Origin: an uncultured Thermococci archaeon
GTDB taxonomy: Archaea; Methanobacteriota_B; Thermococci; Thermococcales; Thermococcaceae
Length of the DNA stretch: 17,029 nt
Direction: 5' to 3'
NCBI GenBank assembly: GCA_964615185.1
Contig: CAZTOS010000015.1
Span: 19,342-36,370, forward strand
Part shown: positions 45-16,973 of the stretch, piece by piece
Numbering within the stretch: position 1 is the first letter of the stretch
How the letters are laid out: every line of letters begins with the position of its first letter
Notes under the pieces: model-generated
What the model saw: the letters and a program-made list of their open reading frames with translations, nothing else
What the model was told of the DNA's origin: nothing
Databases searched by the model: none
Program-made: the position numbers and the translations under genes

Positions 45-1397
45 ATGTTCCATGTGATTGTGAGAGCAAGAAAGGATGCCAAAGCACTGCAATACATAAA
101 TGAGCGTAATTATGGTGGTTTTTTGAGAGTTTCGAGCCTTGGCGGTGGAAGGAGATTTGACGAAGTTGAGAATACTCTGGAAGAACTAAAAGAGGATCCT
201 TATATTCCTATCTTGTTGTTTGGGGAAAAGGAAAGGGAGTTAGCACGGAACATTAATGAATATCTCTCTGAGTTGGGAAAGCCTTTCTATTCTCGAATTT
301 TGAGAACTAAAAAAGTTAGGAACATGCGTGTTGACGAGCTTTATGCTCACTTGGAAGAAATCAAAGCCAGGTTTAGGCTTGGGATTAAGTGGGATGGGAC
401 TTACAAGCTTGATCCAGATAATCCATTTGGCATTGAAATTAATCCAGATTATGACATCTACTTGGCCTTTGGTGATGCCTTTAGAGAAAACATGAGAGAG
501 CTCTTGGGGATAGATATTGGATGTGTTTCACTTGTTTTGAGAAAGCTAATGAATCAGGAAGTGTATTACTCGGGAAGCATGAAGATAGCTGAAGTCAGCA
601 AGCGCATCGGAGAAGGAACTGAGGTACTCTGGAGGATTCCTCACACCGAAGATGTTAGCCTAAAGGACATTATCAAGGCAAATGAATCTTATATCAGGGC
701 TTTTGAAGAAGCAAGCAAGAGTTTTCTTGAACAATTTAAGGATTATGACATAATAGTCCCTTGGAGCGGTGGAAAAGACTCAACAGCAACTTTAATTTTA
801 GCAAGCAAAGTTTTCAAAAATGTTACAGCCGTTTATGTTAGAATGGAATACGAGATGCCTCAAACTGATGAGTATGTTGAAGAACTTGCTAAAAAGCTTG
901 GCATTGATGTTGTCGAAACCTTCGTTCCGATGCCCATTGATAAGTACGGAATCCCCACTCATTACAACCGCTGGTGCACAAAGATGAAGGTAGAGGCTCT
1001 CTACAAGGCTATAGAAGAATTTGAAAATCCAATTTTGGTTGTAGGTGATAGAGATGGTGAAAGTGCAAGAAGGAGGCTAAAGCCACCGGTGATTGAGAGA
1101 GAAAACGAAATTCTTGGTAATTTCTTGGAAATAATGCCCATTAAGTTCTGGTCAGGCATGATGGTGCAGCTCTACATCTTGATGAATGGCTTTGACCTGC
1201 ATCCTCTTTATTATGAGGGATTCTACCGTTTAGGATGCACAATCTGCCCCAGCTTGGCTGATTGGGAAATAAAACTGCTTGATAAGAGAAATGAATTGCC
1301 AGAATTTTCAAGAGATTTATTTTTGGAGAAAAGGAAGAAGAGTAAAAAGCTTAAACTCTCCTCCCAACGACGATTCCAATTATCAGACCTAAAATAA
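45..1397 (+). CDS. PAPS-reductase-family (PP-loop) protein with an uncharacterised N-terminal domain
   Basis: The C-terminal half has the PP-loop PWSGGKDS, RWCT, GDRDGES..R, PIKFW and the Fe-S-type YRLGCTICP motif. The start is moved from the ORF track's TTG at 3 to ATG at 45, which lies about 23 nt after TATA-like CTTATTAA (15-22), consistent with a leaderless transcript. Confidence 0.8.
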   Translation: MFHVIVRARKDAKALQYINERNYGGFLRVSSLGGGRRFDEVENTLEELKEDPYIPILLFGEKERELARNINEYLSELGKPFYSRILRTKKVRNMRVDELYAHLEEIKARFRLGIKWDGTYKLDPDNPFGIEINPDYDIYLAFGDAFRENMRELLGIDIGCVSLVLRKLMNQEVYYSGSMKIAEVSKRIGEGTEVLWRIPHTEDVSLKDIIKANESYIRAFEEASKSFLEQFKDYDIIVPWSGGKDSTATLILASKVFKNVTAVYVRMEYEMPQTDEYVEELAKKLGIDVVETFVPMPIDKYGIPTHYNRWCTKMKVEALYKAIEEFENPILVVGDRDGESARRRLKPPVIERENEILGNFLEIMPIKFWSGMMVQLYILMNGFDLHPLYYEGFYRLGCTICPSLADWEIKLLDKRNELPEFSRDLFLEKRKKSKKLKLSSQRRFQLSDLK

Positions 1398-3267
1398 CAC
1401 CTAATGCACCAATTCCTCCCAGAAGTGATGTTGGAACACTTTTTGCAGGGATTGTGCTGGTTGTTTGGGTTTGTGTATCAGTTTGCGTAGCGGTTGGGCT
1501 TGGTGTTAGCTGTGGTGTAGTTGTTTCTTCGGTTATCTTTGGCGTTGTCTTTGGAAGGAACATCATTGCAGTTTCTTTTGCATATTGGTAGAATATCATG
1601 GCTGTCTGGATATTTTCAATTCCTCCTTGCTTTTCATAGCTTTGAGCAAACTCATAGTATGCCATTCCAAGGATTGTATAAACACCTTTGCTCTGTGCTA
1701 TTGCTATCGCAGTTTTTGCATCCTCCTTCATGTGCTGGAGCTTATCCATTAGCACTGTTTCGTTGTCTATTCCAAGAGTATCAAGTATAACCTCTGCCCT
1801 AATTCTTGCCTCCATTGCTGAAAATAACGCTGCTGAATACTTTCCGTCCTCATAATACTGCTCTCCCTTATTCAACTCATCAACGAGTCCTTGCATTAGG
1901 CTTTCTCCAAACATTGAGGTTATGTATGTAACAACCAGACGAGCATTATCTAAGTACGCTCTCGCTGTCTCTTTGATCACATTTCTGTCGATTACATCTC
2001 CTCTTGCATACCTTTCTCCTAATTTAGCCCAGAATTTTGCTGTCTGTGCTCTTTCATATGCGAATGCTGCATTACTCACCGCATTCCAATAGTCACCTTT
2101 GTAGTAATCACTCCATGCATCTTTGAGAAGAGATTTTGCTTGTTCTATCCTTTCCTCACTTGCTGCAACAGCTTGTAGCATGGTGGTTCCTTTAATGGTC
2201 AAATTTGAGACGTAAGCTTCAGTTTTCTTGATATCCTCATTCACCATATTAAGTAGATTTTCAATATCCTTGTCGTTCTTGATGTTCAAGTACCAATCGA
2301 CGTGCCTGATGACAATCCTTGCCTGGAAATCTTTACTTAAGGCAGTGTAGTACATTCCAGAATCAAGAGCATTCTTTGCCTCTTTTAATGTTTTATTTGC
2401 ACCATCTAAAGCTGCCTTAAGGTAGGAATATGTGGTATAGCTTACATCACTTTCTTTTAGCTTCGTTTCAACTTGGTTATAATATTTGGTGGTGTTTTGA
2501 TAATCCTTTATGGCATCATTTCTCAAGAAGGAAGTGTCTATTTTGATGCTCTCAGGAGCCTTAGGTTTTTCTATTTTATGCCCCGTAAAGTAATACACAG
2601 CCTCATAGATGTCCTTGACTTCCCTTACCTCCAGCCCCCATCTTTCTTTTGCGTATTTAACAACATCAACTTTTTCTTCTTTTGTTGTGATTTGGACAAG
2701 AGGTCCAATTTGTTTTTGTTCAGTTTTTTGAACCACCTGAATTCTCTGGCCTTCGGGTATTAAGAACAGTTTGGCTCCAACACTATGGGCAGCTGAGGCT
2801 TTCTCCAAAATTCCTCCTACTGGACCGATTGTTCCATCTGGATTTATCATCCCGGTCATCATAACGTCATCTCTAAGTTTCCATCCCTTTAGTGCCGCTA
2901 TGATTCCAACAGTCATTGTTCCCCCGGCGGAGGGTCCTCCAATTATAGGAGAATCAGCCTTGACTTGTATGAAGACATCGTATTTGTCCATATCAACTCC
3001 AAGAACCCTGCCGGCAACTTGGGCAGCTAATCTTGCACTTGCTTGCATGTCAACTTCTGCTAATGGCCATGTCTCCACATATACGTGTCCGCTTCCAGGT
3101 GCAACTGTAATTACGAAGTCTGTTGCCACACCGATCAATTCTCCATTGGCAGTTTTTGAGAGTGCTGGGGCCTTTAGGATTACTGTATGACCTTCAGATG
3201 GACATTGGGCAAGTGCCAGTGGCGAAATAAGCAGAATTAACGCCAAAAACGGTAACAACTTTTTCAT
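1351..3267 (-). CDS. Secreted, membrane-anchored S16 (Lon-protease-domain) serine protease, archaeal COG1750-like
   Basis: It has the N-terminal signal peptide MKKLLPFLALILLISPLALA. The Lon-type catalytic motifs GGPSAG (Ser) and MTGMINPDGTIGPVGGILEK (Lys) are present, with no AAA+ domain. A long helical region, Thr/Pro-rich linker and C-terminal TM helix with basic tail follow. The SD GGGGGTGA is at 3272-3279. Confidence 0.85.
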   Translation of the reverse strand: MKKLLPFLALILLISPLALAQCPSEGHTVILKAPALSKTANGELIGVATDFVITVAPGSGHVYVETWPLAEVDMQASARLAAQVAGRVLGVDMDKYDVFIQVKADSPIIGGPSAGGTMTVGIIAALKGWKLRDDVMMTGMINPDGTIGPVGGILEKASAAHSVGAKLFLIPEGQRIQVVQKTEQKQIGPLVQITTKEEKVDVVKYAKERWGLEVREVKDIYEAVYYFTGHKIEKPKAPESIKIDTSFLRNDAIKDYQNTTKYYNQVETKLKESDVSYTTYSYLKAALDGANKTLKEAKNALDSGMYYTALSKDFQARIVIRHVDWYLNIKNDKDIENLLNMVNEDIKKTEAYVSNLTIKGTTMLQAVAASEERIEQAKSLLKDAWSDYYKGDYWNAVSNAAFAYERAQTAKFWAKLGERYARGDVIDRNVIKETARAYLDNARLVVTYITSMFGESLMQGLVDELNKGEQYYEDGKYSAALFSAMEARIRAEVILDTLGIDNETVLMDKLQHMKEDAKTAIAIAQSKGVYTILGMAYYEFAQSYEKQGGIENIQTAMIFYQYAKETAMMFLPKTTPKITEETTTPQLTPSPTATQTDTQTQTTSTIPAKSVPTSLLGGIGALGVILGLIIGIVVGRRV

Positions 3268-3399
3268 TGTTTCACCCCCAAATCCAAAAAGGTTTATTAA
3301 TTTAATAGCTCTTGTGGTTCATGACTCTAAGATTAGAGGATTGCACCAAATAAATTTAATATCTTTAAGTCGTTGTAATAAAATGCCGAGGGGATACCC

Positions 3400-3945
3400 A
3401 TGGGTCTGTTTTCATCATTGATCCAAAGAAAATTTAAAGACATCGCTGGAAAAAGATACGAAAGGATTCTCAAAGAGTACAGGGATTTCTTGCTGACTGA
3501 GGAGGAGATGGTGCTTCCCGAGATTAAGTCGGTGCTAATACCTCTTGATAGATTTATAGGGGAGATTCCAGTTGAGGTCTATGAAACCCTTTCTGCATAT
3601 AGAGATGCAAAGTTTGTCCTCTTATATATAATTGATATCCATGTATCCTACATGATTGAGCAGACACTTGGGGTTGAGGCAAGTGAAGAATTTAAAAAGA
3701 AGGAGAAAGAGGAGGGCATGAAATTGCTTGGAAAAATCTCCAGAAACTTTGAAGCTTTGGGAATTAACCCCCAACTGAGACTCTTCTTTGGGGATAAAAG
3801 TAGGGACATAATAAGCCTTGCACAAAAACATGACTTGCTTGTTCTTTCGAAGGCATACGGGTCTGAAATTACAAAGACTCATCCTCTTAGTCCTGTAGTT
3901 TTGAAGATTGTGCAACATGTTAATATTCCTGTGATAGTTTATTGA
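3400..3945 (+). CDS. Universal stress protein (USP)-like, divergent, with N-terminal extension
   Basis: Shows the USP pattern IKSVLIPLD...VLLYII...G....IISLAQKHDLLVL...S....KIVQHVNIPVIVY. Confidence 0.7.
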   Translation: MGLFSSLIQRKFKDIAGKRYERILKEYRDFLLTEEEMVLPEIKSVLIPLDRFIGEIPVEVYETLSAYRDAKFVLLYIIDIHVSYMIEQTLGVEASEEFKKKEKEEGMKLLGKISRNFEALGINPQLRLFFGDKSRDIISLAQKHDLLVLSKAYGSEITKTHPLSPVVLKIVQHVNIPVIVY

Positions 3946-3955
3946 GGTGACGGAA

Positions 3956-5233
3956 ATGACTCCAGAAACAGTGGCTGTTGCAGTGTTCCTGTTTACCTAC
4001 GCCCTTGTGGTTAGCGAGAAGATTCATAGGGCTGTTGCAGCGATGTTTGGAGCATCTGTAATACTTTTTCTGAAAATAGTTCCATGGGAAAACATTCCCA
4101 AGTACCTTGATTTAAATACACTTTTCCTCCTTATGGGGATGATGATCATTGTAAATACTGCAAGGAATAGCGGTCTTTTTGAATATGTGGCAATAAAAAC
4201 GGCAAAACTTGCACATGGCAGTCCAATTAGAGTCCTGTTGCTGTTTTCTATCGTTACCGCTGTTATCAGTTCTGTTTTAGATAATGTGACAACCGTTTTA
4301 CTTTTAACACCAATGCTGCTTTACATTTCCCGTTTGATGGAGCTAAGTCCGATTCCCTTTTTGCTTTCTGAAATCTTTGCCTCGAACATAGGTGGTACAG
4401 CAACCCTCATTGGTGATCCCCCAAATATAATGATAGGTTCTGCAGCAAAATTAAGCTTCAATGAATTTTTGATAAATATGGGGCCAATTGCGGCGATTGA
4501 TTTAGGTGTAACTATCCTGATAATATACCTCGCATACAATAATGCCCTTAAGGTAACTCCCAAGAAAAAGGTCATGATAATACAAACTCTTCGTGGCTTG
4601 GATGAAAAGGCTGCGATTAGAGATATAAGGCTTTTTAGGAAGTCTGTGGCAATAATTTTATTTGTGGTTGCTTTATTCTTTCTCCATGATAGATTGGGAA
4701 TAGAACCAGCTGTTGTTGCACTTTTTGGAGCATCTCTTATACTATTGTGGACACGTGAGGATCCTGAGGGAATTTTCGAGAAAATTGAGTGGCCAGCTCT
4801 CTTTTTCTTTGGAGGGCTCTTTATAATCGTCGGTGCACTGGAGGAGACTGGCACAATAGCAAAGGTGGCAGAGTGGGTTTTAACTCACGTGCATACCCAA
4901 GGCGAAGCTTTGCTTGTAATTACATGGTTTTCCGCATTCTCTTCTGCAATAGTTGACAATATACCTCTAACTGCTGCAATGATACCTTTAATAAAGCACA
5001 TGGGCGCTTCGATGAATGTGTACCCTCTCTGGTGGGCTCTTAGTTTGGGAGCGTGTTTGGGAGGTAACGGAACTGCAATAGGTGCATCTGCAAACGTTGT
5101 TGTTATAGGAATAGCTGAACGTGAAGATGTCAGGATAACTTTTGTGGACTTTTTAAAAGTTGGAATGATCATTATGATTATAACCGTTGCCATAGGTGTT
5201 GGAATACTCTGGATTAGATATGTTGGGTGGTAA
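3956..5233 (+). CDS. ArsB/NhaD (ion transporter superfamily, P-protein-like) permease
   Basis: It has about 11-12 hydrophobic segments and the paired motifs SSVLDNVTT/ASNIGGTATLIGDPPN and SAIVDNIP/GACLGGNGTAIGASAN. ATG 3956 is preferred over GTG 3947 because the SD GAGGTGA is at 3944-3950. Confidence 0.85.
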   Translation: MTPETVAVAVFLFTYALVVSEKIHRAVAAMFGASVILFLKIVPWENIPKYLDLNTLFLLMGMMIIVNTARNSGLFEYVAIKTAKLAHGSPIRVLLLFSIVTAVISSVLDNVTTVLLLTPMLLYISRLMELSPIPFLLSEIFASNIGGTATLIGDPPNIMIGSAAKLSFNEFLINMGPIAAIDLGVTILIIYLAYNNALKVTPKKKVMIIQTLRGLDEKAAIRDIRLFRKSVAIILFVVALFFLHDRLGIEPAVVALFGASLILLWTREDPEGIFEKIEWPALFFFGGLFIIVGALEETGTIAKVAEWVLTHVHTQGEALLVITWFSAFSSAIVDNIPLTAAMIPLIKHMGASMNVYPLWWALSLGACLGGNGTAIGASANVVVIGIAEREDVRITFVDFLKVGMIIMIITVAIGVGILWIRYVGW

Positions 5234-5685
5234 TGATGAAGATATTGGTGCTCATAGATGGGTCAAAATGGAGTCAAAAAGCAGCACTCCACGCTATAGC
5301 CATAGCCAAAAGAAAAAACGCCAAGATAATTCTGTTTTCTGTTCTGGATAGAAGAGAAGCCAAGGCAATTGCTTTCAATCTGAGCATGAGAAGTGACAAA
5401 ATTGAAGAAATAAAGAGATTTGAAGAGCAGATATGGAAAGATATGAAAAAAAGTGTTAAGGAAATAATGGTTGGTTTACTTGAACTCTGTCATGAGGAAA
5501 ACGTTAATTGTTCAATGAAAATAGTGGAAGGTATAGCAAAGGATGAAATCCTGAAAGAGGCAAACAGTGGAGCTTATGCTCTGGTTGTCATGGGGGCTTA
5601 TGGAAAAAGTGGGAAAACGAGAATCGGAAGCCTGTTGGAGGAGCTTGCAGGTGTTATCCAGCCTCCTTTGCTGATAGTTCGTTAA
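5233..5685 (+). CDS. Universal stress protein
   Basis: Classic USP pattern MKILVLIDGS..S.KA...A...LVVMGAYGKSG...IGS......PPLLIVR. The start is ATG 5233 (TAATG overlap with the permease stop) or ATG 5236. Confidence 0.85.
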   Translation: MMKILVLIDGSKWSQKAALHAIAIAKRKNAKIILFSVLDRREAKAIAFNLSMRSDKIEEIKRFEEQIWKDMKKSVKEIMVGLLELCHEENVNCSMKIVEGIAKDEILKEANSGAYALVVMGAYGKSGKTRIGSLLEELAGVIQPPLLIVR

Positions 5686-5942
5686 TCTCTCTTTACGACA
5701 GCTATGAAAAACAGCAGGAGTATTATCAGCTCGAGCACAGTTGCCACTATATCGAGAGTATTCTCTCTTATCTCCGTTATTGTGTGGAGGTTTTCCAGTG
5801 TCTTTTTAATTCCAAAAAGCAGAAAAGCAAGAAGCAGGAATAAGATGCTCTTCATACCACTTTTTTTATATGCTACCCATGAGACAAATGAAAGGAAGAG
5901 TGCAATACCTATTATTGCGACATCGAGGATTATGTCAATCAT
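5682..5942 (-). CDS. Small 3-TM membrane protein, hypothetical
   Basis: An 86-aa ORF with three hydrophobic segments. The SD GGTGGTGA lies in the end of the upstream regulator gene, and an 8-bp overlap with that gene suggests translational coupling. Confidence 0.7.
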   Translation of the reverse strand: MIDIILDVAIIGIALFLSFVSWVAYKKSGMKSILFLLLAFLLFGIKKTLENLHTITEIRENTLDIVATVLELIILLLFFIAVVKRD

Positions 5943-6453
5943 TTAATTCACCACCTCTTAGAGTTAGCATGAGATCAATAAGCCTATCTGCAAGCTTATC
6001 CCACAGTTTTGGCCTATATTCGCTGATTACTCTCACTATTACCTCGATATCACACTTCAGGCTGTATACAACGTTTCGCCCTTGTTTTCTCTTGTCAATC
6101 AAGCCCAATTTGCTGAGGATGTTCATATGGTAGTTTATCGTTGCTTGAGTCAGCTTTAATCTTTCGGCGATTTCTCGTTGGTTCATTTCTCCTTCTGCCA
6201 GTAGGAGCAGTATCTTTCGCTGAGTTTCATTTGAGATTGCTATCAGCAATGGTTCATATTCCTTCTCAAATTCCTTGGGGAATATATATCTCCTTCCTCC
6301 AAGCTTTTTTGAAACTATCATGCCTTCTTTTTCAAGCTGATAAAGATGGTACTGAAGGTTCCCTATTCCTATCCCAAGCTCATCTGATAGTCTTCGGAAT
6401 GTTATTCCTGGATTTTTGGAGATATGCTGAAGTATCTCCTCTCTATGACTCAT
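5935..6453 (-). CDS. Transcriptional regulator with two winged-HTH (ArsR-like) domains, COG3398-like
   Basis: Two repeated wHTH units: ILQHISKNPGITFRRLSDELGIGIGNLQYHLYQLEKEGMI and ILLLLAEGEMNQREIAERLKLTQATINYHMNILSKLGLI. ATG 6453 is preferred over GTG 6486, with the SD-like GGTAAGTGA upstream. Confidence 0.8.
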   Translation of the reverse strand: MSHREEILQHISKNPGITFRRLSDELGIGIGNLQYHLYQLEKEGMIVSKKLGGRRYIFPKEFEKEYEPLLIAISNETQRKILLLLAEGEMNQREIAERLKLTQATINYHMNILSKLGLIDKRKQGRNVVYSLKCDIEVIVRVISEYRPKLWDKLADRLIDLMLTLRGGELND

Positions 6454-6563
6454 GCTATCACTTACCTTATTCTCCTTTTGGTACACCCCTCTATAGATTA
6501 CATGGAAAGAGATATAAATTGGTTTGGGGTTATGATGGGTGTCTCTTTTACGGGGTGGGAGAG

Positions 6564-7931
6564 GTGAATATAGACAGACTGATAAAAAAGGCTGAAGAGC
6601 TTGCAGGAAGATATGGGGTTACTTATTATGAGGTGAGAGTGGTTAAAATAAGTGTTGCTCATCTGGAAATGCAGAATTCTCATTTGGAAGAGATTTCCTC
6701 AAACATGGAAATTGGTATTGGTGTGAGAGCATTTCAGGGAGCATGGGGATTTTCTTCTGCTAATGATATTGGGAGAGCAGAAAAGGCAATAGAAACAGCA
6801 ATGAAAATAGCAAAGTTGATGAAGGGGAGCTCAAAAGTTTATCTCAATGATCCAATAAAAGATAGGGCTGAAATTAAAGCAAAAAAGCCTTTTATAAACG
6901 TGGATTTGGATGAGAAACTTGAACTTGTGAAGACTGTGGATAAATTTCTGGAGGATAATGATATTGTAAACAGAAAGGTATCCTACGGAGATGGCTTGAA
7001 ATGGCAGTTTTACTTTAACTCACTGGGAAGTGAAATTGAAACAATAATCCCAAGAATAAGACTCAGCTTCTCTGCAACAGCTAAAAAAGGAAATGAAATG
7101 CAAAGTTACTGGAAGATTTTTGGTGGAACTGGTGGATGGGAAATTGTTGAGGATGTTGACTTAGAATATTGGACAGCTTTTGTGAAAGAAAAATCAAAAT
7201 CCTTGCTGAATGCTCAGTTACCCCCTTCTGGAGAGTTTGATGTAATAATGGATCCAGAGCTTGCTGGTGTGTTCATTCATGAAGCATTAGGACATGCAAG
7301 CGAAGGCGACGCAATAAAGAATGGAGAGAGCATTTTAGAGGGTAAGCTTGGAGAGAAAATAGCTGTTGAAGAGCTTACGGTTGTTGATGACCCTACCCTT
7401 GAGGGAAAATTTGGTTCATATATTTATGATGATGAAGGGGTAAAAGCAAGAAGGGTTGAAATAATTAAGGATGGAGTTCTCAATGAGTACCTCCTTGATA
7501 GAGAAACAGCGGCTTATTTCGATATGGAACCGAATGGACATGGGAGAGCACAAAGCTACAACTATCAGCCTTTGGTCAGAATGAGCAATACTTATATTGA
7601 ACCCCGTGACTGGAGCTTTGAGGAAATGCTCAGTGAAGTGAAGCGTGGTTTATATTTAATCGGAGATAAAGGAGGAGAAGTGGATATAGCGAATGGAACA
7701 TTCATGTTTGGAGCAAAAGAGGGATATTTAATTGAAAATGGAGAAATTAAGGCCCATATACGAGATGTTGCATTATCAGGAAAGATACTTGATGTTCTCA
7801 AAAATATCCGGGCTATTGGTAAAGACCTAAAGGTTGAGTTTCCGGGCTACTGTGGAAAAGGCCAGTGGGTTCCTGTTGATGACGGTGGGCCTCATGTGTT
7901 GACAAGAGCTTTAGTGGGTGGATTGCTATGA
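6564..7931 (+). CDS. tldD: TldD/PmbA-family metalloprotease, TldD (catalytic) subunit
   Basis: Has GIGVRA..GAWGFSS, the metal motif FIHEALGHASEGD, YDDEG, RMSNTYIEP and C-terminal YCGKGQWVPV. The likely start is GTG 6564, with SD GGGGTGG at 6552-6558. The ORF track's 6141 start runs antisense through the regulator gene. Confidence 0.9.
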   Translation: MNIDRLIKKAEELAGRYGVTYYEVRVVKISVAHLEMQNSHLEEISSNMEIGIGVRAFQGAWGFSSANDIGRAEKAIETAMKIAKLMKGSSKVYLNDPIKDRAEIKAKKPFINVDLDEKLELVKTVDKFLEDNDIVNRKVSYGDGLKWQFYFNSLGSEIETIIPRIRLSFSATAKKGNEMQSYWKIFGGTGGWEIVEDVDLEYWTAFVKEKSKSLLNAQLPPSGEFDVIMDPELAGVFIHEALGHASEGDAIKNGESILEGKLGEKIAVEELTVVDDPTLEGKFGSYIYDDEGVKARRVEIIKDGVLNEYLLDRETAAYFDMEPNGHGRAQSYNYQPLVRMSNTYIEPRDWSFEEMLSEVKRGLYLIGDKGGEVDIANGTFMFGAKEGYLIENGEIKAHIRDVALSGKILDVLKNIRAIGKDLKVEFPGYCGKGQWVPVDDGGPHVLTRALVGGLL

Positions 7932-10315: not shown

Positions 10316-10888
10316 TCAAATCTTTTCCAGGAGCTTTTTCCTCTTTTCTTCGTACTCTTCTTGGGTTATAACCCCCATATCATAGAGTTCTTTTAACTTT
10401 TTGAGCTTCTCAAGGGGATCTTCTTCTCTCTTTTCTCTAAATTTCCTTGGTTCCATTCTAATTGATCTGCTCACAGCTTCCTTTGGCTTGTGGATAGCCC
10501 ACTCTTCACTCATCAGATGTTTCTTTCTCTCAATGCTTACGGGCTCAACTGCAATCTCATTTAATGCATCTCTAATGGCTTCTATTGCCTTTCTTGCTTC
10601 ATCTTTATCCATCTTTGTCAGCTTAATCTCGCTTCCATCTTCCTTCTTAATTAGAAACTCTGAGTACATTTTTCCAACCTTTACATAAACAAGTTCAAGC
10701 TTCTCATAGGGAACAGCTGTTAGCTCATACCTTCCCAATAGCTTTTCATCAACATATAGAATTCTTCTATCAGTTATAACCAGCCATTTGGGTTTTGCCT
10801 CTAAGCTGAATTTCTTTTTTATGGCATATAGGACTTCTTCATTGGGGTAAAGATTTTCTATAATCCCCTTTGGGAGTTTTCCGCTCAT
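10316..10888 (-). CDS. Bacterial-type PH domain plus C-terminal SHOCT domain protein
   Basis: Has LYPNEEVLY...WLVITDRRILYVD (bPH) and C-terminal LEKLKKLKELYDMGVITQEEYEEKRKKLL (SHOCT). The SD AGGTGAT is at about 10896-10902. Confidence 0.8.
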   Translation of the reverse strand: MSGKLPKGIIENLYPNEEVLYAIKKKFSLEAKPKWLVITDRRILYVDEKLLGRYELTAVPYEKLELVYVKVGKMYSEFLIKKEDGSEIKLTKMDKDEARKAIEAIRDALNEIAVEPVSIERKKHLMSEEWAIHKPKEAVSRSIRMEPRKFREKREEDPLEKLKKLKELYDMGVITQEEYEEKRKKLLEKI

Positions 10889-10964
10889 GGAATTATCACC
10901 TGTATTTTACTATATTCAAGTTGTATATTAAGCTTTGCACGTGAAAACAATTCCTCACTAAAAC

Positions 10965-10980
10965 CAAAAAGTATATTAAC
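10965..10980 (+). promoter_or_regulatory. BRE/TATA promoter, copy 1 (CAAAAAGTATATTAAC)
   Basis: A purine-rich BRE is followed by TATATTAA. An identical 16-mer occurs at 12027-12042. Confidence 0.7.
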
Positions 10981-11004
10981 CAAAGTATATATAACATGTT
11001 AAAA

Positions 11005-11047
11005 GCAAAGCCTGTCCCGCTTTTCTTTTCTGCGAGATGGTTTTTGC
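11005..11047 (+). ncRNA. Conserved leader hairpin, copy 1 (candidate cis-regulatory RNA)
   Basis: GCAAAGCC-T-GTCCCGC [TTTTCTTTTCT] GCGAGAT-GGTTTTTGC, homologous to 12088-12129. It abuts the SD GGTGGTGA at 11051-11058. Confidence 0.6.
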
Positions 11048-11062
11048 ATTGGTGGTGATATA

Positions 11063-11470
11063 GTGAAAAAACAACTCGTGGTCATGGGATTTTGGGTACT
11101 AACCTTACCTTTAGTGCTATGTCAGGAAGGTGGAGATTATTTAACGGGTCTCAGGATAGGAGGCCCTTTTATTGGTGCTGTACTGATAGCTGCACTCCTT
11201 CTCTTGCTCTGGCTAACTCGAAAATACTTGGTTAAATTTATTCTTGTCTCCATTGTGGCTGTGACCCTTGGGGGCGTTGGGTACTTAATTGGCTCGATGT
11301 TTATTCAAGGTCTTGAAGTACCCTTGGGTATGGGATTCTTTATTCTTGGTCTTCTGGTGTCCCTGAAGATGCCGAAGGCAAAAGGTAGGAGTGCTATTAG
11401 GACATCACTTGGGAGCAACGAAGATGAGAGCGGGTTTTTTGATAATGACGAATGGGACTGGAGTGATTAA
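11063..11470 (+). CDS. Hypothetical membrane protein (signal-like N-terminus, about 3 TM, acidic/aromatic tail)
   Basis: GTG start with SD GGTGGTGA, several hydrophobic segments, and the tail NEDESGFFDNDEWDWSD. Confidence 0.7.
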   Translation: MKKQLVVMGFWVLTLPLVLCQEGGDYLTGLRIGGPFIGAVLIAALLLLLWLTRKYLVKFILVSIVAVTLGGVGYLIGSMFIQGLEVPLGMGFFILGLLVSLKMPKAKGRSAIRTSLGSNEDESGFFDNDEWDWSD

Positions 11471-11537
11471 GGATGATGGGGAATTTTCGTTTGAGAAAAG
11501 GAACCAAACAAAGCTATAAAGTAAAGGAGGTGAGAAT

Positions 11538-11924
11538 ATGGGACTAATAAAGAAGCTCATAATAGGATTCATTGTCCTGCTTGTTGTGGGAGTTGCATTT
11601 ACATTTGGTATTTACCATTACACTCTTGCAACCCATGAAAAGGAACTAATCATAAGCCAGAGCGAGACAGTTAACGGCCCAGTTTATTATACCTCAGCCG
11701 TTTTACCCGCTGGAAAATACTTTATAGAAGCAGAAAGCTCAGGAGTCGTTGAAGGCGTGCAAATACTCAAAGCGGACACAGATGAAGTTGTGACAGAATT
11801 TGAAGGTGGAAATGTCATATACAGTTCAGCAAATCCTTTCAGGGTTCGCATTCAGTACAATGCACCAAATCCAAATGAAGACTACACGGTCTCTGTTAAG
11901 ATATATCGGCTTGTGAAAAAGTGA
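11538..11924 (+). CDS. Hypothetical N-terminally membrane-anchored beta-rich protein, paralog 1
   Basis: Perfect SD GGAGGTGA at 11526-11533 and an N-terminal TM helix. Clearly similar to 15715-16098. Confidence 0.8.
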   Translation: MGLIKKLIIGFIVLLVVGVAFTFGIYHYTLATHEKELIISQSETVNGPVYYTSAVLPAGKYFIEAESSGVVEGVQILKADTDEVVTEFEGGNVIYSSANPFRVRIQYNAPNPNEDYTVSVKIYRLVKK

Positions 11925-11929
11925 TCTTG

Positions 11930-11961
11930 GAGTTTTGTTTCTTGTTTATCTTTTTTCTTTT
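11930..11961 (+). terminator. U-rich archaeal terminator ending unit 1
   Basis: GTTTTGTTTCTTGTTTATCTTTTTTCTTTT follows just after the stop at 11924. Confidence 0.6.
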
Positions 11962-12026
11962 AGTTAGGAGAAAATGATAGGTCTTTTTTCGACTTCCTTT
12001 GATACCAGATAATCTCATCTAACAAA

Positions 12027-12042
12027 CAAAAAGTATATTAAC
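12027..12042 (+). promoter_or_regulatory. BRE/TATA promoter, copy 2 (CAAAAAGTATATTAAC)
   Basis: Identical to 10965-10980. Confidence 0.7.
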
Positions 12043-12079
12043 AATAAAGAGTTATTGTACATCAAAGGAAAAATGTAAT

Positions 12080-12139
12080 ACACCAAAGCAAAACCTGTCT
12101 CGTTTTTCTTTTCTACGAGATGGTTTTGCAAATTGGTGT
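12080..12139 (+). ncRNA. Conserved leader hairpin, copy 2 (candidate cis-regulatory RNA)
   Basis: ACACCAA-A-GCAAAACC-T-GTCTCGT [TTTTCTTTTCT] ACGAGAT-GGTTTTGC-AAA-TTGGTGT forms three stacked helices of 7, 8 and 7 bp. The core at 12088-12129 is homologous to 11005-11047. Confidence 0.65.
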
Positions 12140-12176
12140 CCCGTAAGTGGAATTCGCTCTCTGGTGTGTGATAGAT

Positions 12177-15100
12177 ATGAAACGAAAAATTGTATTGACA
12201 TTGGCACTTTTGTTATTTGGTTTTAGTTTTATACCTGAGACTTTGGCTCAAAGTGAGGACTACAAACTAATCTATGGCACATATTTTGGATGGGGAAACT
12301 CTGCGGACAACATAATAAGCATTGATGTAAAAGAGGGAGAGGCTTATATTGCCGGGAACCATGCTATGGGAGTTGGCAATGTGGACATCTACTATGCGAA
12401 GTTCACAAAAAGTGGGAGGGATGTTGAGTATATTCACTTCTTTGGTGGAAGTGCAAATGAAGAGATCACAAAAATTAGGGTTGATGGAAACGGCAACATA
12501 TACCTCTTTGGAAAAACCTCATCCAGAGACATGCCTACGAAAAATGCCTTTCAAAGTAAGCTGATTGGCGACAGTGATCTGTTCATTGCCAAGCTCTCCC
12601 CCAATGGTGAACTAATCTTTTCCACTTACTTTGGCGGCGAATATACTGAAGAACCATACGATATGGAAGTTGATAGCGAGGGTAATGTATACATAACAGG
12701 CTACACTAGGCACGCATGGGGCGAGAATAATAACTTGAGGCACATTCCTCTAAAAAATGAGAAAATAGGTGTTGAAGGCATAAAGAAATTCGACTTCTAT
12801 ACAAGACCATTTATAGCAAAATTTGACACAAATGGCAACTTGATATTCTCGACTTATTGGCCTCTTTATGAGATAAATCTGGCTCCAGTTAAGGACGGTC
12901 TCTACATCGGTGGACATACTGTGAATCCAGATTATTATACCACACCGGGTGCATTCGATACTGTATGCGGGATTAAAGAGCAGAAATGCGACCCGTACCT
13001 GAAAAACAGCGATATAGCAATAACAAAGCTTGACAGTAATTTGAATATCGTTTACTCCACCTTCATAGGCTCAACTGGAGCGGATTACCTCAAAGACCTC
13101 TATGTGGACGAAGAAGGTTATGTATACGGTGTGGGAGTTCAGGCATGGAAAAACAATGACTTTCCACTCAAGAATCCATCCATGACAAAGCCTGAGGGGG
13201 ATGGGGCTGATTACGGCATTGTTTTCAAGATGACGCCTACACTAAGTGCCCTTGTGTACTCGACGTACTTCATGAGAGAAGCTTCAGTTCACTCGATTAG
13301 AGCTGAGAATGGTGAGGCATATGTAATAGGCATAACTCAGAACGCCACCGGTTCCCATTTAACCACTCCAAATGCCCTCATGCCAAAAGACACTTCCTCA
13401 TTAACACAAAACGCTTTCTTTGCGAAGCTTGATTCAAACGGTCACATTCTGTATTGCACGCTCTTAGGGGGTCACGAAAAGGATTATACTCAAAGAGAAT
13501 GGGCATCCGAAATAGCTGTTGAGAATGGTGAAGCCTACATAGGTGGCTACACCAGAGCCTATGACTTTCCAATTACAAAAGATTCCTTCAAAGAAGAGCC
13601 TGCTAAAGACCTCTCTTATCTTGCTGAGGGTTATATCGTCAAATTTGGCTTTAAAGAATACCCTCCCCAGCTCCCCAAGATAACACTCAACAAGACTATC
13701 TCAATAGGTGAAAGCGTTTGGGGGAAGGACATCAAGGAAGTAAGTGACGGCTATGCAATTTTGGCAGCTTCTGAGGGAAATCCAAGCTATCCAATACTTG
13801 TGAAAACTGATAAAGAGGGTAATCTCATTTGGTTTAAGAAGTACACCAACATAATTGGTGACTTCCCATCTCTTGCCATTGAAAACGATGGCTACCTGAT
13901 CTTTGGAACTCTGGAAGGTAAAGCCACACTTATAAAAACCGACTTAAGTGGAAACATCTTGTGGAGCAAAAACTATGCAGAACATGGGACTTTCCAGAGA
14001 GGAAGAGAGATTATGAAAGTCCAGGATGGTTATATCCTAATGGGTTCCACCAATGGAACTTGGGGCGGAAGTAGGGGGGTTTATGGCGAGTTGTTCTTGG
14101 TAAACGTAGATAAAAGTGGCAATCTTTTATGGGAGAGCTACATTAATGTTGAAAAGCTCGGAATGAGTCCAGACATGATGCCCCATCAAGTTAAGAAAAC
14201 CAAGGACGGCTACATAATAATTGGGGATACTGTAAAAACGAAAAAGAGCAACATGCATAGAATATTTGTCGTCAAAACGAACTTAGAGGGAAAGGAGGAG
14301 TGGGTCAAATATCTTGGGAAGAACAGTGATAAAAAGGAAGATTACGCAGTGGGCTTCAGTGTGGAAGTTCTGGACAACGGATATCTTGTAGCAGGTTACG
14401 TGTACAACAACCTTTTCGGAGGGAGTGATCTCTACATTGCAAGGCTTGATTTAGCTGGCAATTTAGTATGGGAAAAGGTTGAGGGAAAAGTAGAAAGTGA
14501 TGAACCAGTTAAAATCCTAAAAGCTGATGATGGCTTTGTGCTCTTTGACAGAGGAATGGAAAATGCCTGGACAGGTAAGAAAGGTTACTTCTTCAAATTC
14601 AACGATAGGGGCATTAAAGAGTACTCTTTTGATATAGATATGCCAAAGCAAGATTGGGCACTAAATATGGAGAGAGTTAGCGACGGATATTTGCTCTTAT
14701 TGTCAAGTAACTCCTTCAGCAATACTCGTGACCTTTGGCTTATCAAGGTGGAGGCACCACAGTCCACAGAAACCTCGACAAGCACTTCAACCCAGATATC
14801 CACAACTTCAGCTCCAACATCAGTACAAACTTCCTTTAGATACCGCGACGAGTTCAACTCACTGAACAGAGACTTCTGGTGGGTTGGAGAGTGGGTTACC
14901 CTCAGGGAAGCTTACGAGAAGGTTAGGATAGAGAATGGTATACTCGAGATGCCAGTGAAAGAAACGGATAGGAATGGAGTAGTGGTTAGCAAGCCAATAA
15001 AAGTGAACAAAGGCGACATAGTTATAGTCAGGAGGAGAGTTTTGGCTCATTATGCCAATGAGTACTTCCAGGGTGGCTTTGAGTTCTATCAGACAAATGA

Positions 15101-15713
15101 GAGCGCTCTCAAGATAACGAGATATGATAAGTACTGGCTCAACTCGTATGGAAGGAGGCTTTTCGCAGTGGGTTACTATCACTACTACTACGAAAAACCC
15201 GGCGTTTCACTTTATGTGCCGACTAAGAACGGTTTTGCTGTTTATGGCCAGAACTGGAGGAATGCCAAGAACTATGCGGTTTTTGACCCCATCTGGGATA
15301 ACTGGTTTGAGGAGGAGATTATTTACGACACCGGTACAGAGGAAGTAACCTACAAGCTCAACGGACAGGAGGGGAAGATCTTAGCGGCTCCCTACAATAG
15401 CAGTCATATCAGAATTGTCATGCATCCCTATGGATGGTATACCGGACATTATATGAAAGTTGACTGGATTGAAGTGGAAGTAAAGTCTGCTAAGCCATCT
15501 GAAGAAACTACGACAACCCGGACTTCCACAATCCAAACATCAAAAACTTCCACAATCGTAGGAACTGAGAACATTACAGAAACCGCCAAGGAGATTGCAA
15601 CCAGTGCGACAGAAAAAGCTAAGGAAGTTGCTAAGGGAGTCTGCGGACCGGGAATGATAGTTGCAGTGATTCTTCTGCCATTAATCTTAAGGAGAAAGAG
15701 GGAAGGTGCTTAA
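12177..15713 (+). CDS. Large cell-surface protein: SBBP-type beta-propeller, second beta-propeller, ConA/GH16-like domain and CGP-CTERM sorting signal
   Basis: Signal peptide from ATG 12177 (SD GGTGTGTGA at 12163-12171). Repeats of the type F(I/F)AK(L/F)xxNGxLIFSTY span about 12260-13650, and repeats of the type (L/V)(V/I)KTDxxGNLxW span about 13680-14750. S/T linkers flank a domain bounded by FRYRDEFNSLN..FW and MKVDWIEV. The C-terminus is VCGPG, a TM helix and RRKR (15642-15713). Confidence 0.85.
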   Translation: MKRKIVLTLALLLFGFSFIPETLAQSEDYKLIYGTYFGWGNSADNIISIDVKEGEAYIAGNHAMGVGNVDIYYAKFTKSGRDVEYIHFFGGSANEEITKIRVDGNGNIYLFGKTSSRDMPTKNAFQSKLIGDSDLFIAKLSPNGELIFSTYFGGEYTEEPYDMEVDSEGNVYITGYTRHAWGENNNLRHIPLKNEKIGVEGIKKFDFYTRPFIAKFDTNGNLIFSTYWPLYEINLAPVKDGLYIGGHTVNPDYYTTPGAFDTVCGIKEQKCDPYLKNSDIAITKLDSNLNIVYSTFIGSTGADYLKDLYVDEEGYVYGVGVQAWKNNDFPLKNPSMTKPEGDGADYGIVFKMTPTLSALVYSTYFMREASVHSIRAENGEAYVIGITQNATGSHLTTPNALMPKDTSSLTQNAFFAKLDSNGHILYCTLLGGHEKDYTQREWASEIAVENGEAYIGGYTRAYDFPITKDSFKEEPAKDLSYLAEGYIVKFGFKEYPPQLPKITLNKTISIGESVWGKDIKEVSDGYAILAASEGNPSYPILVKTDKEGNLIWFKKYTNIIGDFPSLAIENDGYLIFGTLEGKATLIKTDLSGNILWSKNYAEHGTFQRGREIMKVQDGYILMGSTNGTWGGSRGVYGELFLVNVDKSGNLLWESYINVEKLGMSPDMMPHQVKKTKDGYIIIGDTVKTKKSNMHRIFVVKTNLEGKEEWVKYLGKNSDKKEDYAVGFSVEVLDNGYLVAGYVYNNLFGGSDLYIARLDLAGNLVWEKVEGKVESDEPVKILKADDGFVLFDRGMENAWTGKKGYFFKFNDRGIKEYSFDIDMPKQDWALNMERVSDGYLLLLSSNSFSNTRDLWLIKVEAPQSTETSTSTSTQISTTSAPTSVQTSFRYRDEFNSLNRDFWWVGEWVTLREAYEKVRIENGILEMPVKETDRNGVVVSKPIKVNKGDIVIVRRRVLAHYANEYFQGGFEFYQTNESALKITRYDKYWLNSYGRRLFAVGYYHYYYEKPGVSLYVPTKNGFAVYGQNWRNAKNYAVFDPIWDNWFEEEIIYDTGTEEVTYKLNGQEGKILAAPYNSSHIRIVMHPYGWYTGHYMKVDWIEVEVKSAKPSEETTTTRTSTIQTSKTSTIVGTENITETAKEIATSATEKAKEVAKGVCGPGMIVAVILLPLILRRKREGA

Positions 15714-15714
15714 G

Positions 15715-16098
15715 ATGGGAAAGCTTTCCACTTTTGTGGTGATATTAATCCTGCTTGGTGCAGGAGCGTGGTATTTAAACTACCACCTCAAGCTCTCTGA
15801 ATATGACAAGGAATTACTGTTCAATGAAGAGAAAACTGTTCAAGGAGCTGCATACTACACCTCACCCGTGATTCCAGCAGGTACCTACAGAATCAAGATA
15901 GAGCCGAGCGAAAATGTGGACAATGTAAGAATTATCAGTGAGTCTGGTAAAGTTCTTCATAAGCCTCTTATGGTTGTCAAATCGGATTTCGTTTACACAT
16001 CAGATGTGCCTTTCAAGGTTGAAGTGAAGTTTCATCCAGAAGAAGGCTACAACAAGTACAGCATCTCAGTGAGGATTTACAAGCTCATAAAGAAGTGA
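15715..16098 (+). CDS. Hypothetical N-terminally membrane-anchored beta-rich protein, paralog 2
   Basis: ATG 15715 follows the upstream stop after 1 nt, with SD GGAAGGTG. It shares YH..L....KEL, TV.G..YYTS.V.PAG.Y.I, Y.S..PF.V and SV.IY.L.KK with 11538-11924. Confidence 0.8.
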   Translation: MGKLSTFVVILILLGAGAWYLNYHLKLSEYDKELLFNEEKTVQGAAYYTSPVIPAGTYRIKIEPSENVDNVRIISESGKVLHKPLMVVKSDFVYTSDVPFKVEVKFHPEEGYNKYSISVRIYKLIKK

Positions 16099-16193: not shown

Positions 16194-16973
16194 ATGGACT
16201 TCGAGCGAAAAGTTCTCATTGGAATGGTTCACCTCAAACCATTACCTGGCTCATACCTTTACGATGGAAACTTTGATGAAGTAGTAGAACATGCAATTGA
16301 TGAAGCTAAAAAGCTTGAAAAAGCTGGTTTTGATGCGATAATGGTGGAAAACTTTAGGGACATACCTTTTCCAAAAACCGTTGAGAAAATAACAGTTTCA
16401 GCTATGAGTGTCATTTCAAAAGCAATTCGCGAGGAAGTTTCTCTCCCCTTGGGCATAAACGTCTTGAGGAATGATGGAATTGCTGCTTACTCAATAGCCT
16501 ACGCTGTGAAAGCGGACTTCATAAGGGTGAATGTCTTGAGCGGGGTTGCATACACTGACCAGGGGATAATAGAGGGCATAGCCTATGAGCTGGCAAAGCT
16601 GAGGAAGCTCTTGCCGAGCAAAATAAAGGTTTTTGCAGATGTGCATGTTAAACATGCGTATCACTTCGGAGAATTTGAAGATGCATTAAGGGATACTATT
16701 GAGAGGGGCTTGGCTGACGCTGTAATTATCAGTGGAAAGGCAACTGGAATGGAAGTTGATGTTGAGGAACTTAAAAAAGCAAAGGAGATTTCACCAGTTC
16801 CAGTTATTGTAGGCTCAGGGACAACCTACGACAACCTTCCAAAGCTGTGGAAATATGCTGATGGCTTCATAGTGGGGACATGGATTAAGAAAGAGGGGAA
16901 AACAAAGAATGATATTGACCTGAGAAGAGCCAAGAAATTAGTGGAGCTTGCGAATGAGCTAAGGAACTGGTAA
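16194..16973 (+). CDS. BtpA/SgcQ-family TIM-barrel protein
   Basis: Has IGMVHLKPLPGS, GFDAIMVENF.D.PF, LGINVLRND, FIRVN, FADVHVKH, ADAVIISG.ATG and ADGFIVGT. The SD GGTGAT is at 16185-16190. Confidence 0.9.
   Translation: MDFERKVLIGMVHLKPLPGSYLYDGNFDEVVEHAIDEAKKLEKAGFDAIMVENFRDIPFPKTVEKITVSAMSVISKAIREEVSLPLGINVLRNDGIAAYSIAYAVKADFIRVNVLSGVAYTDQGIIEGIAYELAKLRKLLPSKIKVFADVHVKHAYHFGEFEDALRDTIERGLADAVIISGKATGMEVDVEELKKAKEISPVPVIVGSGTTYDNLPKLWKYADGFIVGTWIKKEGKTKNDIDLRRAKKLVELANELRNW

What the first reader, a model, noticed from the sequence alone, without database searches (positions are those of the whole stretch)
11005..12139. Repeated structured 5'-leader element with an invariant U-rich loop and a compensatory base pair: candidate new archaeal cis-regulatory RNA
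Seen in the sequence: two intergenic copies, 11005-11047 (GCAAAGCCTGTCCCGC TTTTCTTTTCT GCGAGATGGTTTTTGC) and 12088-12129 (GCAAAACCTGTCTCGT TTTTCTTTTCT ACGAGATGGTTTTGC). Each lies between a promoter and the first start codon. The 11-nt loop is identical and both stems keep a bulged U (11013/12096). The loop-closing pair covaries (C11020-G11032 vs T12103-A12115), and an A-U becomes a G-U wobble at 11010. Copy 1 also has one C-A mismatch (11017/11035) and one extra U. Both copies are followed within 1-3 nt by TTGGTG. In copy 2 this pairs with ACACCAA, and in copy 1 it overlaps the SD. The downstream genes are unrelated and most flanking sequence has diverged, which argues for selection on the element. 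Established: archaeal termination occurs at U-tracts (aCPSF1/FttA), and Sm-like archaeal proteins bind oligo-U. Inference: it could be an attenuator/antiterminator, a protein-binding loop (e.g. SmAP), a translational switch or thermosensor, or a DNA hairpin/recombination site. I do not recognise it as a known RNA family.
Basis: partly seen in the sequence, partly recalled or inferred. Interest (0 to 1): 0.85.

Follow-up and report, generated by a model that had tools for sequence, protein, structure and literature searches.

The report
U-loop leader hairpin, archaeal surface operons
A small folded RNA with a uridine-rich loop sits at the very start of the messenger RNAs for surface-protein operons in most Thermococcus-type archaea; it is conserved, transcribed and undescribed in the libraries searched, and it may be a switch that decides whether these operons are read through.

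Summary
Real. Both 42-43-nt hairpins are as described, but the two window copies come from one duplicated promoter-leader cassette, so they alone prove little. Across genomes the case is strong. A covariance model matches 60 of 99 Thermococcales genomes and 0 of 36 outside the family. The core is 91% identical where synonymous sites of the neighbouring gene are 41%. The top covarying column pairs are all stem pairs, and wobbles favour the sense-strand RNA. The hairpin heads a variable operon of exported proteins (btpA-glmM locus). A shorter form with a like loop heads an unrelated lipoprotein operon. Published start sites and raw reads put it at the mRNA 5' end, with its base next to the ribosome-binding site. 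Rfam has no match. Best mechanism (about 35%): a fold-gated site for the termination nuclease FttA. The loop fits its U-reading pattern, one library shows a 3' end 7 nt past the loop, and the stem is predicted to be half melted at 85 C. The register is imperfect and the operon can be highly expressed. Rivals are a protein-bound translational operator, a 5' stabiliser, or an antitermination signal. Loop-SD pairing was rejected.

The parts
10964..10979 (+). BRE plus TATA box of unit 1 (inferred); start site expected near 11000-11003. A second TATA-like run at 10986-10994 is not kept in the closest orthologues
   Evidence: sequence; shared with copy 2; orthologous promoters
11005..11047 (+). Leader hairpin, copy 1: lower A/U-G/U stem, bulged U 11013, upper stem with C-A pair 11017/11035, loop 11021-11031, conserved U at 11038 (model position 37)
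   Evidence: (66.9 bits)
11051..11058 (+). Shine-Dalgarno-like sequence next to the hairpin base; GTG start at 11063, 31 nt after the loop
11063..11470 (+). 135-aa membrane protein: signal-like N-terminus, then the xLTG..GP..G helix also seen in the 41-46-aa leader ORFs of relatives; no Pfam match
11538..11924 (+). 128-aa protein, one N-terminal helix plus beta-sandwich; marker gene of the operon; paralogue of 15706-16098
12026..12041 (+). BRE plus TATA box of unit 2 (inferred); start site expected near 12064-12066
12088..12129 (+). Leader hairpin, copy 2: loop 12104-12114, bulged U 12096, conserved U at 12121
   Evidence: (73.4 bits)
12147..15713 (+). Large exported beta-propeller protein (in-frame GTG 12147 or ATG 12177), SBBP repeat, C-terminal CGP-type anchor seen by eye
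15706..16098 (+). Second member of the 127-130-aa family, closing unit 2
16194..16973 (+). BtpA-family gene, landmark of the locus (upstream of the hairpin in most relatives)

Best explanation
It is a cis-acting RNA hairpin at the 5' end of mRNAs for exported proteins (about 85-90% for that much). Most likely working: a fold-gated checkpoint for FttA/aCPSF1-dependent termination. SHOWN: it is transcribed from the start site, it is conserved as a sense-strand stem with a pyrimidine loop, and its base abuts the ribosome-binding site. INFERRED: when polymerase reaches the first start codon, the loop and the 3' arm have just left it and no ribosome can yet load. If the stem is open, the loop (UUU-C-UUU) is read by the KH domains of FttA and the RNA is cut in the 3' arm, ending transcription about 35-40 nt in. 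If the stem closes, the cut site is paired and the operon is read through. What tips the balance (temperature, polymerase speed or a loop-binding protein) is unknown.
For: FttA reads U at -30 to -32 and -34 to -36 and cuts at -22/-23, preferring U at -23 (PMC11616081). Loop positions 21-27 give 5.6 of 6 U in that pattern; the register cutting after position 37 has U at the site in 83% and 5.9 of 6 pyrimidines. In run X16 one contig has a poly(A) stretch joined after L090:4123, which is model position 37, at word depth 35.5 against 329.6 downstream. A cut there puts polymerase at position 59; a start codon with an SD-like sequence lies 27-33 nt after the loop (about positions 58-64) in 58 of 70. 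The G-U pair 13/37 stays G-U in 51 of 69 and is G-C in 3. Predicted pairing of the upper stem falls from 0.95 at 60 C to 0.54 at 85 C. In raw reads X24 depth is about 50 over the hairpin and 0-2 in the gene body.
Against: The best U register (cut after position 34) has A at the site; the register of the observed end has only 3.3 of 6 U. FttA does not explain the near-invariant loop C24 and C29 or the C-A pair. The 3' end is one contig of one run, and it also marks the end of the upper helix, where 3'-5' trimming could stall. The X24 drop rests on 70 reads with short inserts, no control gene was laid, and read length or 5' enrichment can give the same shape; no end was listed at position 37 in X24. 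The orthologous operon in T. onnurineus has expression values of 2,100-7,400 against 340-510 for btpA, so any attenuation is leaky or off there. Mapped archaeal terminators generally lack hairpins (PMC8716108). Melting figures come from a nearest-neighbour model without polyamines or base modification.
Confidence: 0.35

Rival explanations
1. Translational operator: a cellular RNA-binding protein recognises the UUUNCUUUUCY loop on a G/C stem and, bound beside the SD, blocks or licenses 30S loading on mRNAs for exported proteins.
For: The same 11-nt loop type sits on rewritten stems (GCCC/GGGC, CGGC/GCCG, CCGC/GCGG, CCGC/GCGA, UCGU/ACGA). The stem base lies 13-17 nt before the start codon in 34 of 51 short-form rows (duplicates included) and at a like distance in the long form. 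Loop C24 and C29 are kept in 68 and 64 of 69.
Against: No candidate protein: no operon gene is both universal and RNA-binding-like, and the cytosolic PH-like gene is missing from the window's genome. Short-form loops vary from 10 to 13 nt with G, A or C at the interrupting place. The SD itself is not paired.
Confidence: 0.25
2. 5' stability element: a terminal hairpin shields the mRNA from 5'-3' exonuclease, with the U-rich loop acting as a nuclease or Sm-protein handle that sets its half-life.
For: The long form begins 1-3 nt after the start site by distance and reads begin at L090:4088. The operon can be highly expressed.
Against: The short form starts about 19 nt in (with L117) and window copy 2 about 20 nt in; a plain shield needs no conserved loop and no fixed distance to the start codon.
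Confidence: 0.14
3. Processive antitermination signal: like ops/JUMPstart or LoaP leaders of bacterial surface operons (recalled, no call), it loads a factor on polymerase so that long operons with U-rich signal-peptide codons are read to the end.
For: It heads long, variable operons of exported proteins and is repeated at internal promoters before the largest gene.
Against: No dedicated Spt5/NusG paralogue was seen in the loci (genomes not searched for one). It also heads one- and two-gene units, and internal lipoprotein genes with their own promoter-like sequences lack it.
Confidence: 0.1
4. DNA site: a palindromic operator (6-11-6 inverted repeat just after the start site) for a repressor, or a single-strand DNA hairpin used in gene shuffling.
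For: The inner palindrome is nearly invariant with little covariation, and gene content behind it is heavily shuffled.
Against: Apart from the two fixed non-canonical pairs, G-U outnumbers A-C 75 to 10 on the sense strand. Spacers of 10-13 nt and rewritten half-sites occur in the short form. There is one per promoter, not one per gene, and no recombinase among the recurring neighbours.
Confidence: 0.1
5. Neutral relic of promoter duplication or a small mobile repeat.
For: The two window copies share promoter, leader and a paralogous gene.
Against: Core 90.6% identical against 41.1% at four-fold sites of btpA over 1,225 pairs of 50 loci; 1-3 copies per genome, always sense and leader-placed; present in 56 of 57 genomes that carry the marker gene.
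Confidence: 0.03

Closest known systems
FttA/aCPSF1-dependent terminators (PMC11616081, section 3 part 1 and passages; PMC8716108, passages)
   Same: U-rich block 7-13 nt upstream of a U; one observed 3' end at that U; placed where translation cannot yet shield the RNA.
   Different: Lies in a 5' leader, not at a gene end; the U block is a hairpin loop and the cut region is paired; C-interrupted register fits only partly.
Thermococcal leader RNAs: crcB fluoride riboswitch, sRk28, sscA/sRk33, sRkB (PMC4247193 and PMC3124441, passages)
   Same: Structured RNAs in or near 5' leaders of Thermococcales, with proposed regulatory roles.
   Different: Other genes and other folds; none is described at the btpA-glmM locus; no Rfam match here.
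ops/JUMPstart-RfaH, LoaP leader hairpins, EAR RNA (recalled, no call)
   Same: Short conserved leader element heading variable operons for surface or exported products.
   Different: Bacterial; need a dedicated NusG paralogue or a larger RNA; no sequence likeness shown.
fourU and ROSE RNA thermometers (recalled, no call)
   Same: U-rich element next to the SD; predicted melting range overlaps the growth range.
   Different: The SD is outside the stem and loop-SD pairing is no better than control.
Protein-bound loop operators such as lambda boxB, MS2 hairpin, ribosomal-protein leaders (recalled, no call)
   Same: Exchangeable stem, conserved loop, conserved bulge and mismatch.
   Different: No partner protein identified; genes controlled are exported proteins.

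Membership tests
Any Rfam 15 family | Match to a covariance model at the gathering score | tested here: not met
   Window: 2 weak matches elsewhere, E 2 and 3.1; 0 matches at E<=2 in 6 homologous loci
Cis-regulatory 5'-leader RNA | Transcribed, downstream of the start site, upstream of the first ORF | tested here: met
   Published primary start sites 179, 57 and 191 nt before TK2180, TK1942 and TON_1448; hairpins lie within these distances in L090, L117, L131; reads begin at L090:4088. Not shown for the window's own organism
Cis-regulatory 5'-leader RNA | Structure supported by covariation | tested here: met
   Top 5-6 of about 1,000 column pairs are stem pairs in 3 of 3 analyses; E<0.05 for 3, 2 and 0 of 15 pairs: modest
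Cis-regulatory 5'-leader RNA | Changes expression of the downstream genes | not testable with these tools
   Needs reporters
FttA-dependent terminator | U at -23 with U at -30 to -32 and -34 to -36 | tested here: inconclusive
   One register has 5.6 of 6 U but A at the site; another has U at the site (83%) but 3.3 of 6 U
FttA-dependent terminator | RNA 3' end at the predicted site | tested here: inconclusive
   Poly(A) joined after position 37 in 1 contig of 1 of 4 runs laid
FttA-dependent terminator | Dependence on FttA | not testable with these tools
   Needs depletion or in vitro cleavage
fourU/ROSE thermometer | U-rich strand pairs with its own SD | tested here: not met
   Own -4.71 versus swapped -4.69 kcal/mol, permutation p 0.45, 68 distinct pairs; not clearly better than 300 other RBS regions
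Bacterial-type intrinsic terminator | G/C stem followed directly by a long U run | tested here: not met
   The 3-4 U after the upper stem pair with the 5' arm and covary with it
MITE or REP-like repeat | Many dispersed copies in either orientation | tested here: not met
   1-3 per genome, sense to the downstream gene
Integron attC-like site | One hairpin per gene cassette, with a recombinase | tested here: not met
   One per promoter in operons of up to 6-7 genes; no recombinase among recurring neighbours
ops/JUMPstart-type antitermination element | Dedicated NusG/Spt5 paralogue | not tested
   None seen in the loci; whole genomes not searched
ac4C site of TkNat10 | CCG motif that is acetylated | tested here: inconclusive
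   C at position 16, which completes CCG, in 55 of 69 but not in window copy 2; no row found in the one supplement searched, which was cut when stored

The most novel reading that the evidence does not exclude
An archaeal attenuator in which RNA folding gates the CPSF73-like nuclease FttA: a hairpin tuned to melt near the growth optimum hides or exposes a cleavage site just before the first ribosome can load, and so sets the output of two unrelated operons for exported surface proteins, possibly as a temperature sensor acting on termination.
Probability: 0.22. Interest if true: 0.85.

Novelty: new variant of a known kind. Interest (0 to 1): 0.63.

Why it matters
Very few cis-acting leader RNAs are known in archaea; the 2014 T. 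kodakarensis transcriptome paper states there was then no direct in vivo support for attenuators or riboswitches in Archaea (PMC4247193). This element is short, is present in a genetically tractable model (leaders of TK2180 and TK1942), and makes a base-precise prediction about FttA cleavage, so it makes the question of structure-controlled attenuation in archaea directly testable. If instead a protein reads the loop, it defines a regulon for exported proteins and a bait to find the factor. It also points to an uncharacterised, highly variable surface operon.

Tried and rejected
Loop-SD pseudoknot: no advantage for own pairs. Pairing with SRP RNA: best duplex -7.5 to -11.7 kcal/mol in a region the fold shows paired, no control run, so no support. 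A second copy of the loop 12-mer just upstream of the BRE looked like a DNA site, but btpA ends there, reads stop by L090:4060, and it is absent from the window's promoters: read as the btpA terminator. Wider regulon in the window's genome: two loose hairpin scans gave 16 and 31 rows and no further leader example; model R2 gave none. Of 40 weak unassigned R2 matches fetched (E 3e-4 to 0.046), 2 head the already known large lipoprotein and the rest show no common pattern. Viral contigs: 0 exact matches. Genome-contig scan: 21 matches, 20 Thermococci and 1 Christensenella record lacking the outer stem, taken as chance; this scan missed many genomes found by the model, so it does not bound the range. 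Function of operon proteins: Pfam blank for most, Atlas scores at most 0.78, fold searches without a match at E<=0.001. Weak cross-hits between the lipoprotein family and operon families look like shared signal and linker segments; they were not inspected. Temperature-resolved expression data: none found; the Nagaoka 2013 paper is not held. T-box reading of the Phe-like triplets in the loop: rejected by reasoning, as the genes are unrelated to amino-acid supply. Earlier scan findings: none bore on this.

Full report
1. Observation. Both hairpins are present as written and are the only two copies in the assembly. Rfam gives no match over them or in 6 homologous loci. The window alone is weak evidence for selection. 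The promoter block is shared at 26 of 29 positions, the alignment continues to the start codon, and both units end in paralogous genes. The two copies are a duplicated promoter-leader cassette.

2. Distribution. A DNA search with copy 2 and its flanks hit the hairpin alone in many relatives. A covariance model from 24 of these sequences matched 60 of 99 Thermococcales genomes at E<=0.05, 1-3 per genome, and 0 of 36 genomes of the other families of the phylum. One genus of the family (g3) has 0 of 9. The 127-aa marker gene is in 57 of 99 genomes; comparing the two tables by hand, 56 of the 57 have the hairpin, the exception being 80% complete. All 80 matches were fetched and re-found (81 rows, one a reverse-strand shadow, dropped).

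3. Context. The long form heads a variable operon between btpA and the phosphosugar mutase gene: large exported proteins, a membrane-anchored partner, beta-propeller proteins, the 127-aa family, a lipoprotein and a PH-like protein, in changing order and number. It moves with the operon when this is relocated (L083, L113, L114, L042) and recurs at internal promoters. In many loci a 41-46-aa single-helix ORF follows directly. The weakest matches led to a second class: a 4-8-bp G/C stem with a U-rich loop before the SD of a lipoprotein operon whose protein family is in 82 of 99 genomes. A hairpin of this kind was found before 51 of 106 lipoprotein-like starts examined, a set that includes duplicates and internal genes. 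A third lipoprotein with a related promoter carries it in 4 genomes. Whether long and short forms are homologous or convergent is not settled. Of 77 first ORFs of 100 aa or more, 75 have an N-terminal hydrophobic stretch, against 170 of 540 other genes; these are few families, not independent events.

4. Selection and structure. Statistics use the 71 full-length, higher-scoring rows (69 distinct); the 9 weakest were left out. Over 1,225 pairs from 50 loci with btpA, the 30-column core is 90.6% identical and the loop 88.5%, against 41.1% at four-fold sites. On the model-fitted alignment of all rows 89.3% of cells pair and 12 of 15 pairs show double changes (this leans towards the model). In my own R-scape-like test with a tree-based null, the top 5 or 6 of about 1,000 column pairs were all stem pairs in 3 of 3 runs, but only 3, 2 and 0 of 15 reached E<0.05, the last on a structure-blind alignment: consistent but modest support, mostly in the lower stem. 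Leaving out the two fixed non-canonical pairs (G-U 13/37, C-A 16/34), G-U outnumbers A-C 75 to 10, which favours the sense strand. The loop consensus is UUUUCUYUUCY.

5. It is in the mRNA. Published primary start sites lie 179 nt before TK2180, with none listed for TK2181-2184, 57 nt before TK1942 (PMC4247193, supplement rows) and 191 nt before TON_1448 (PMC5316973, supplement rows). In loci with first genes of the same size and order, the model match begins 178 nt (L090) and 188 nt (L131) before the start codon, and the short form in L117 lies 38-18 nt before it. Raw reads of run X24 begin at L090:4088, one base into the match (13 molecules), with depth about 50 over the hairpin, falling over the next 150 nt to 0-2 in the gene; 7 molecules end at 4205 (70 reads, no control gene). 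One contig of run X16 carries poly(A) after 4123, model position 37. No RNA data were examined for the window's own organism.

6. Mechanism. A start codon with an SD-like sequence lies 27-33 nt after the loop in 58 of 70 rows, whatever the gene; window copy 1 has 31. Loop-SD pairing was tested and rejected. The FttA structure defines U contacts at -30 to -32, -34 to -36 and -23 from the nascent 3' end (PMC11616081). Loop positions 21-27 fit the six KH contacts (5.6 of 6 U) but point to a cut after A34; the observed end at U37 has 3.3 of 6. Either cut places polymerase at about the start codon, before a ribosome can load. The upper stem is predicted to be 95% paired at 60 C and 54% at 85 C. I therefore favour a fold-gated FttA site, at about 35%. 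Against it: the imperfect register, the unexplained loop cytidines, the single-run 3' end that trimming could also give, and high expression of the T. onnurineus operon. A protein-bound operator (25%), a 5' stabiliser (14%), an antitermination signal (10%), a DNA site (10%) and a relic (3%) remain.

7. Novelty. No description was found in searches of the held library, which lacks most subscription journals. Files 13-15 of the PMC4247193 supplement were not searched and may list this leader as a small RNA. Papers seen: PMC4247193 and PMC5316973 (passages, supplement rows), PMC11616081 (passages, section 3 part 1), PMC11928934 (passages, one cut supplement), PMC8716108, PMC13675443, PMC3124441, PMC9800685 (passages). 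ops/RfaH, LoaP, EAR, fourU, boxB, attC and T-box are recalled. The labels c3, c32 and similar are my clusters; 'CGP-type anchor', 'PH-like' and 'signal peptide' are read by eye.

8. Verdict. A real, selected, transcribed leader hairpin family confined to Thermococcaceae and tied to exported-protein operons; not a member of any tested family; mechanism open, with one sharp testable model. Interest 0.63.

Noticed in passing
L048:10730-10867 and many others; window 11063-11470: A 41-46-aa single-helix ORF (EPLTG..GP..G) follows the hairpin in many loci, recurs before other large exported genes, is fused to the big protein in L046, and forms part of the window's 135-aa protein. It could be a small membrane partner or a sensing leader peptide.
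   Followed up: partly
L051:8303-10434, L033:8954-12221 and orthologues: The first two operon genes form a pair: a large exported protein with a variable N-terminus and one of two alternative C-terminal domains, mostly followed by a partner of matching size class. This recalls polymorphic toxin-immunity or adhesin systems; no fold match was found.
   Followed up: partly
window 11538-11924 and 15706-16098: Paralogous 127-130-aa proteins, one helix plus a beta-sandwich (pLDDT 94); nearest folds are PPC/GOLD/PliG-like at E about 0.002-0.01 only.
   Followed up: partly
window 10316-10888 (-): Bacterial PH plus SHOCT domain gene, divergent from the hairpin promoter here and near the locus in many relatives.
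   Followed up: no
L090:4226-4240: A second U-rich tract at the end of the leader ORF coincides with the last fall in X24 read depth; it may be a further termination point or a read-length effect.
   Followed up: no
promoters of the long form, e.g. L048, L041: A short inverted repeat ATTAC-N10-GTAAT spans the TATA box and the region behind it in many orthologous promoters; possible operator.
   Followed up: no
L192, L194-L196, L199: In genus g3, which lacks the long form, the lipoprotein leader often has a different hairpin with a 5-6-nt pyrimidine loop next to the SD.
   Followed up: no
window 1351-3267 (-), 3400-5685 (+), 5935-6486 (-): Exported protein with a Lon C-terminal protease domain; a transporter-like gene flanked by two stress-protein-like genes (read by eye); a double winged-helix regulator. 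Ordinary.
   Followed up: no
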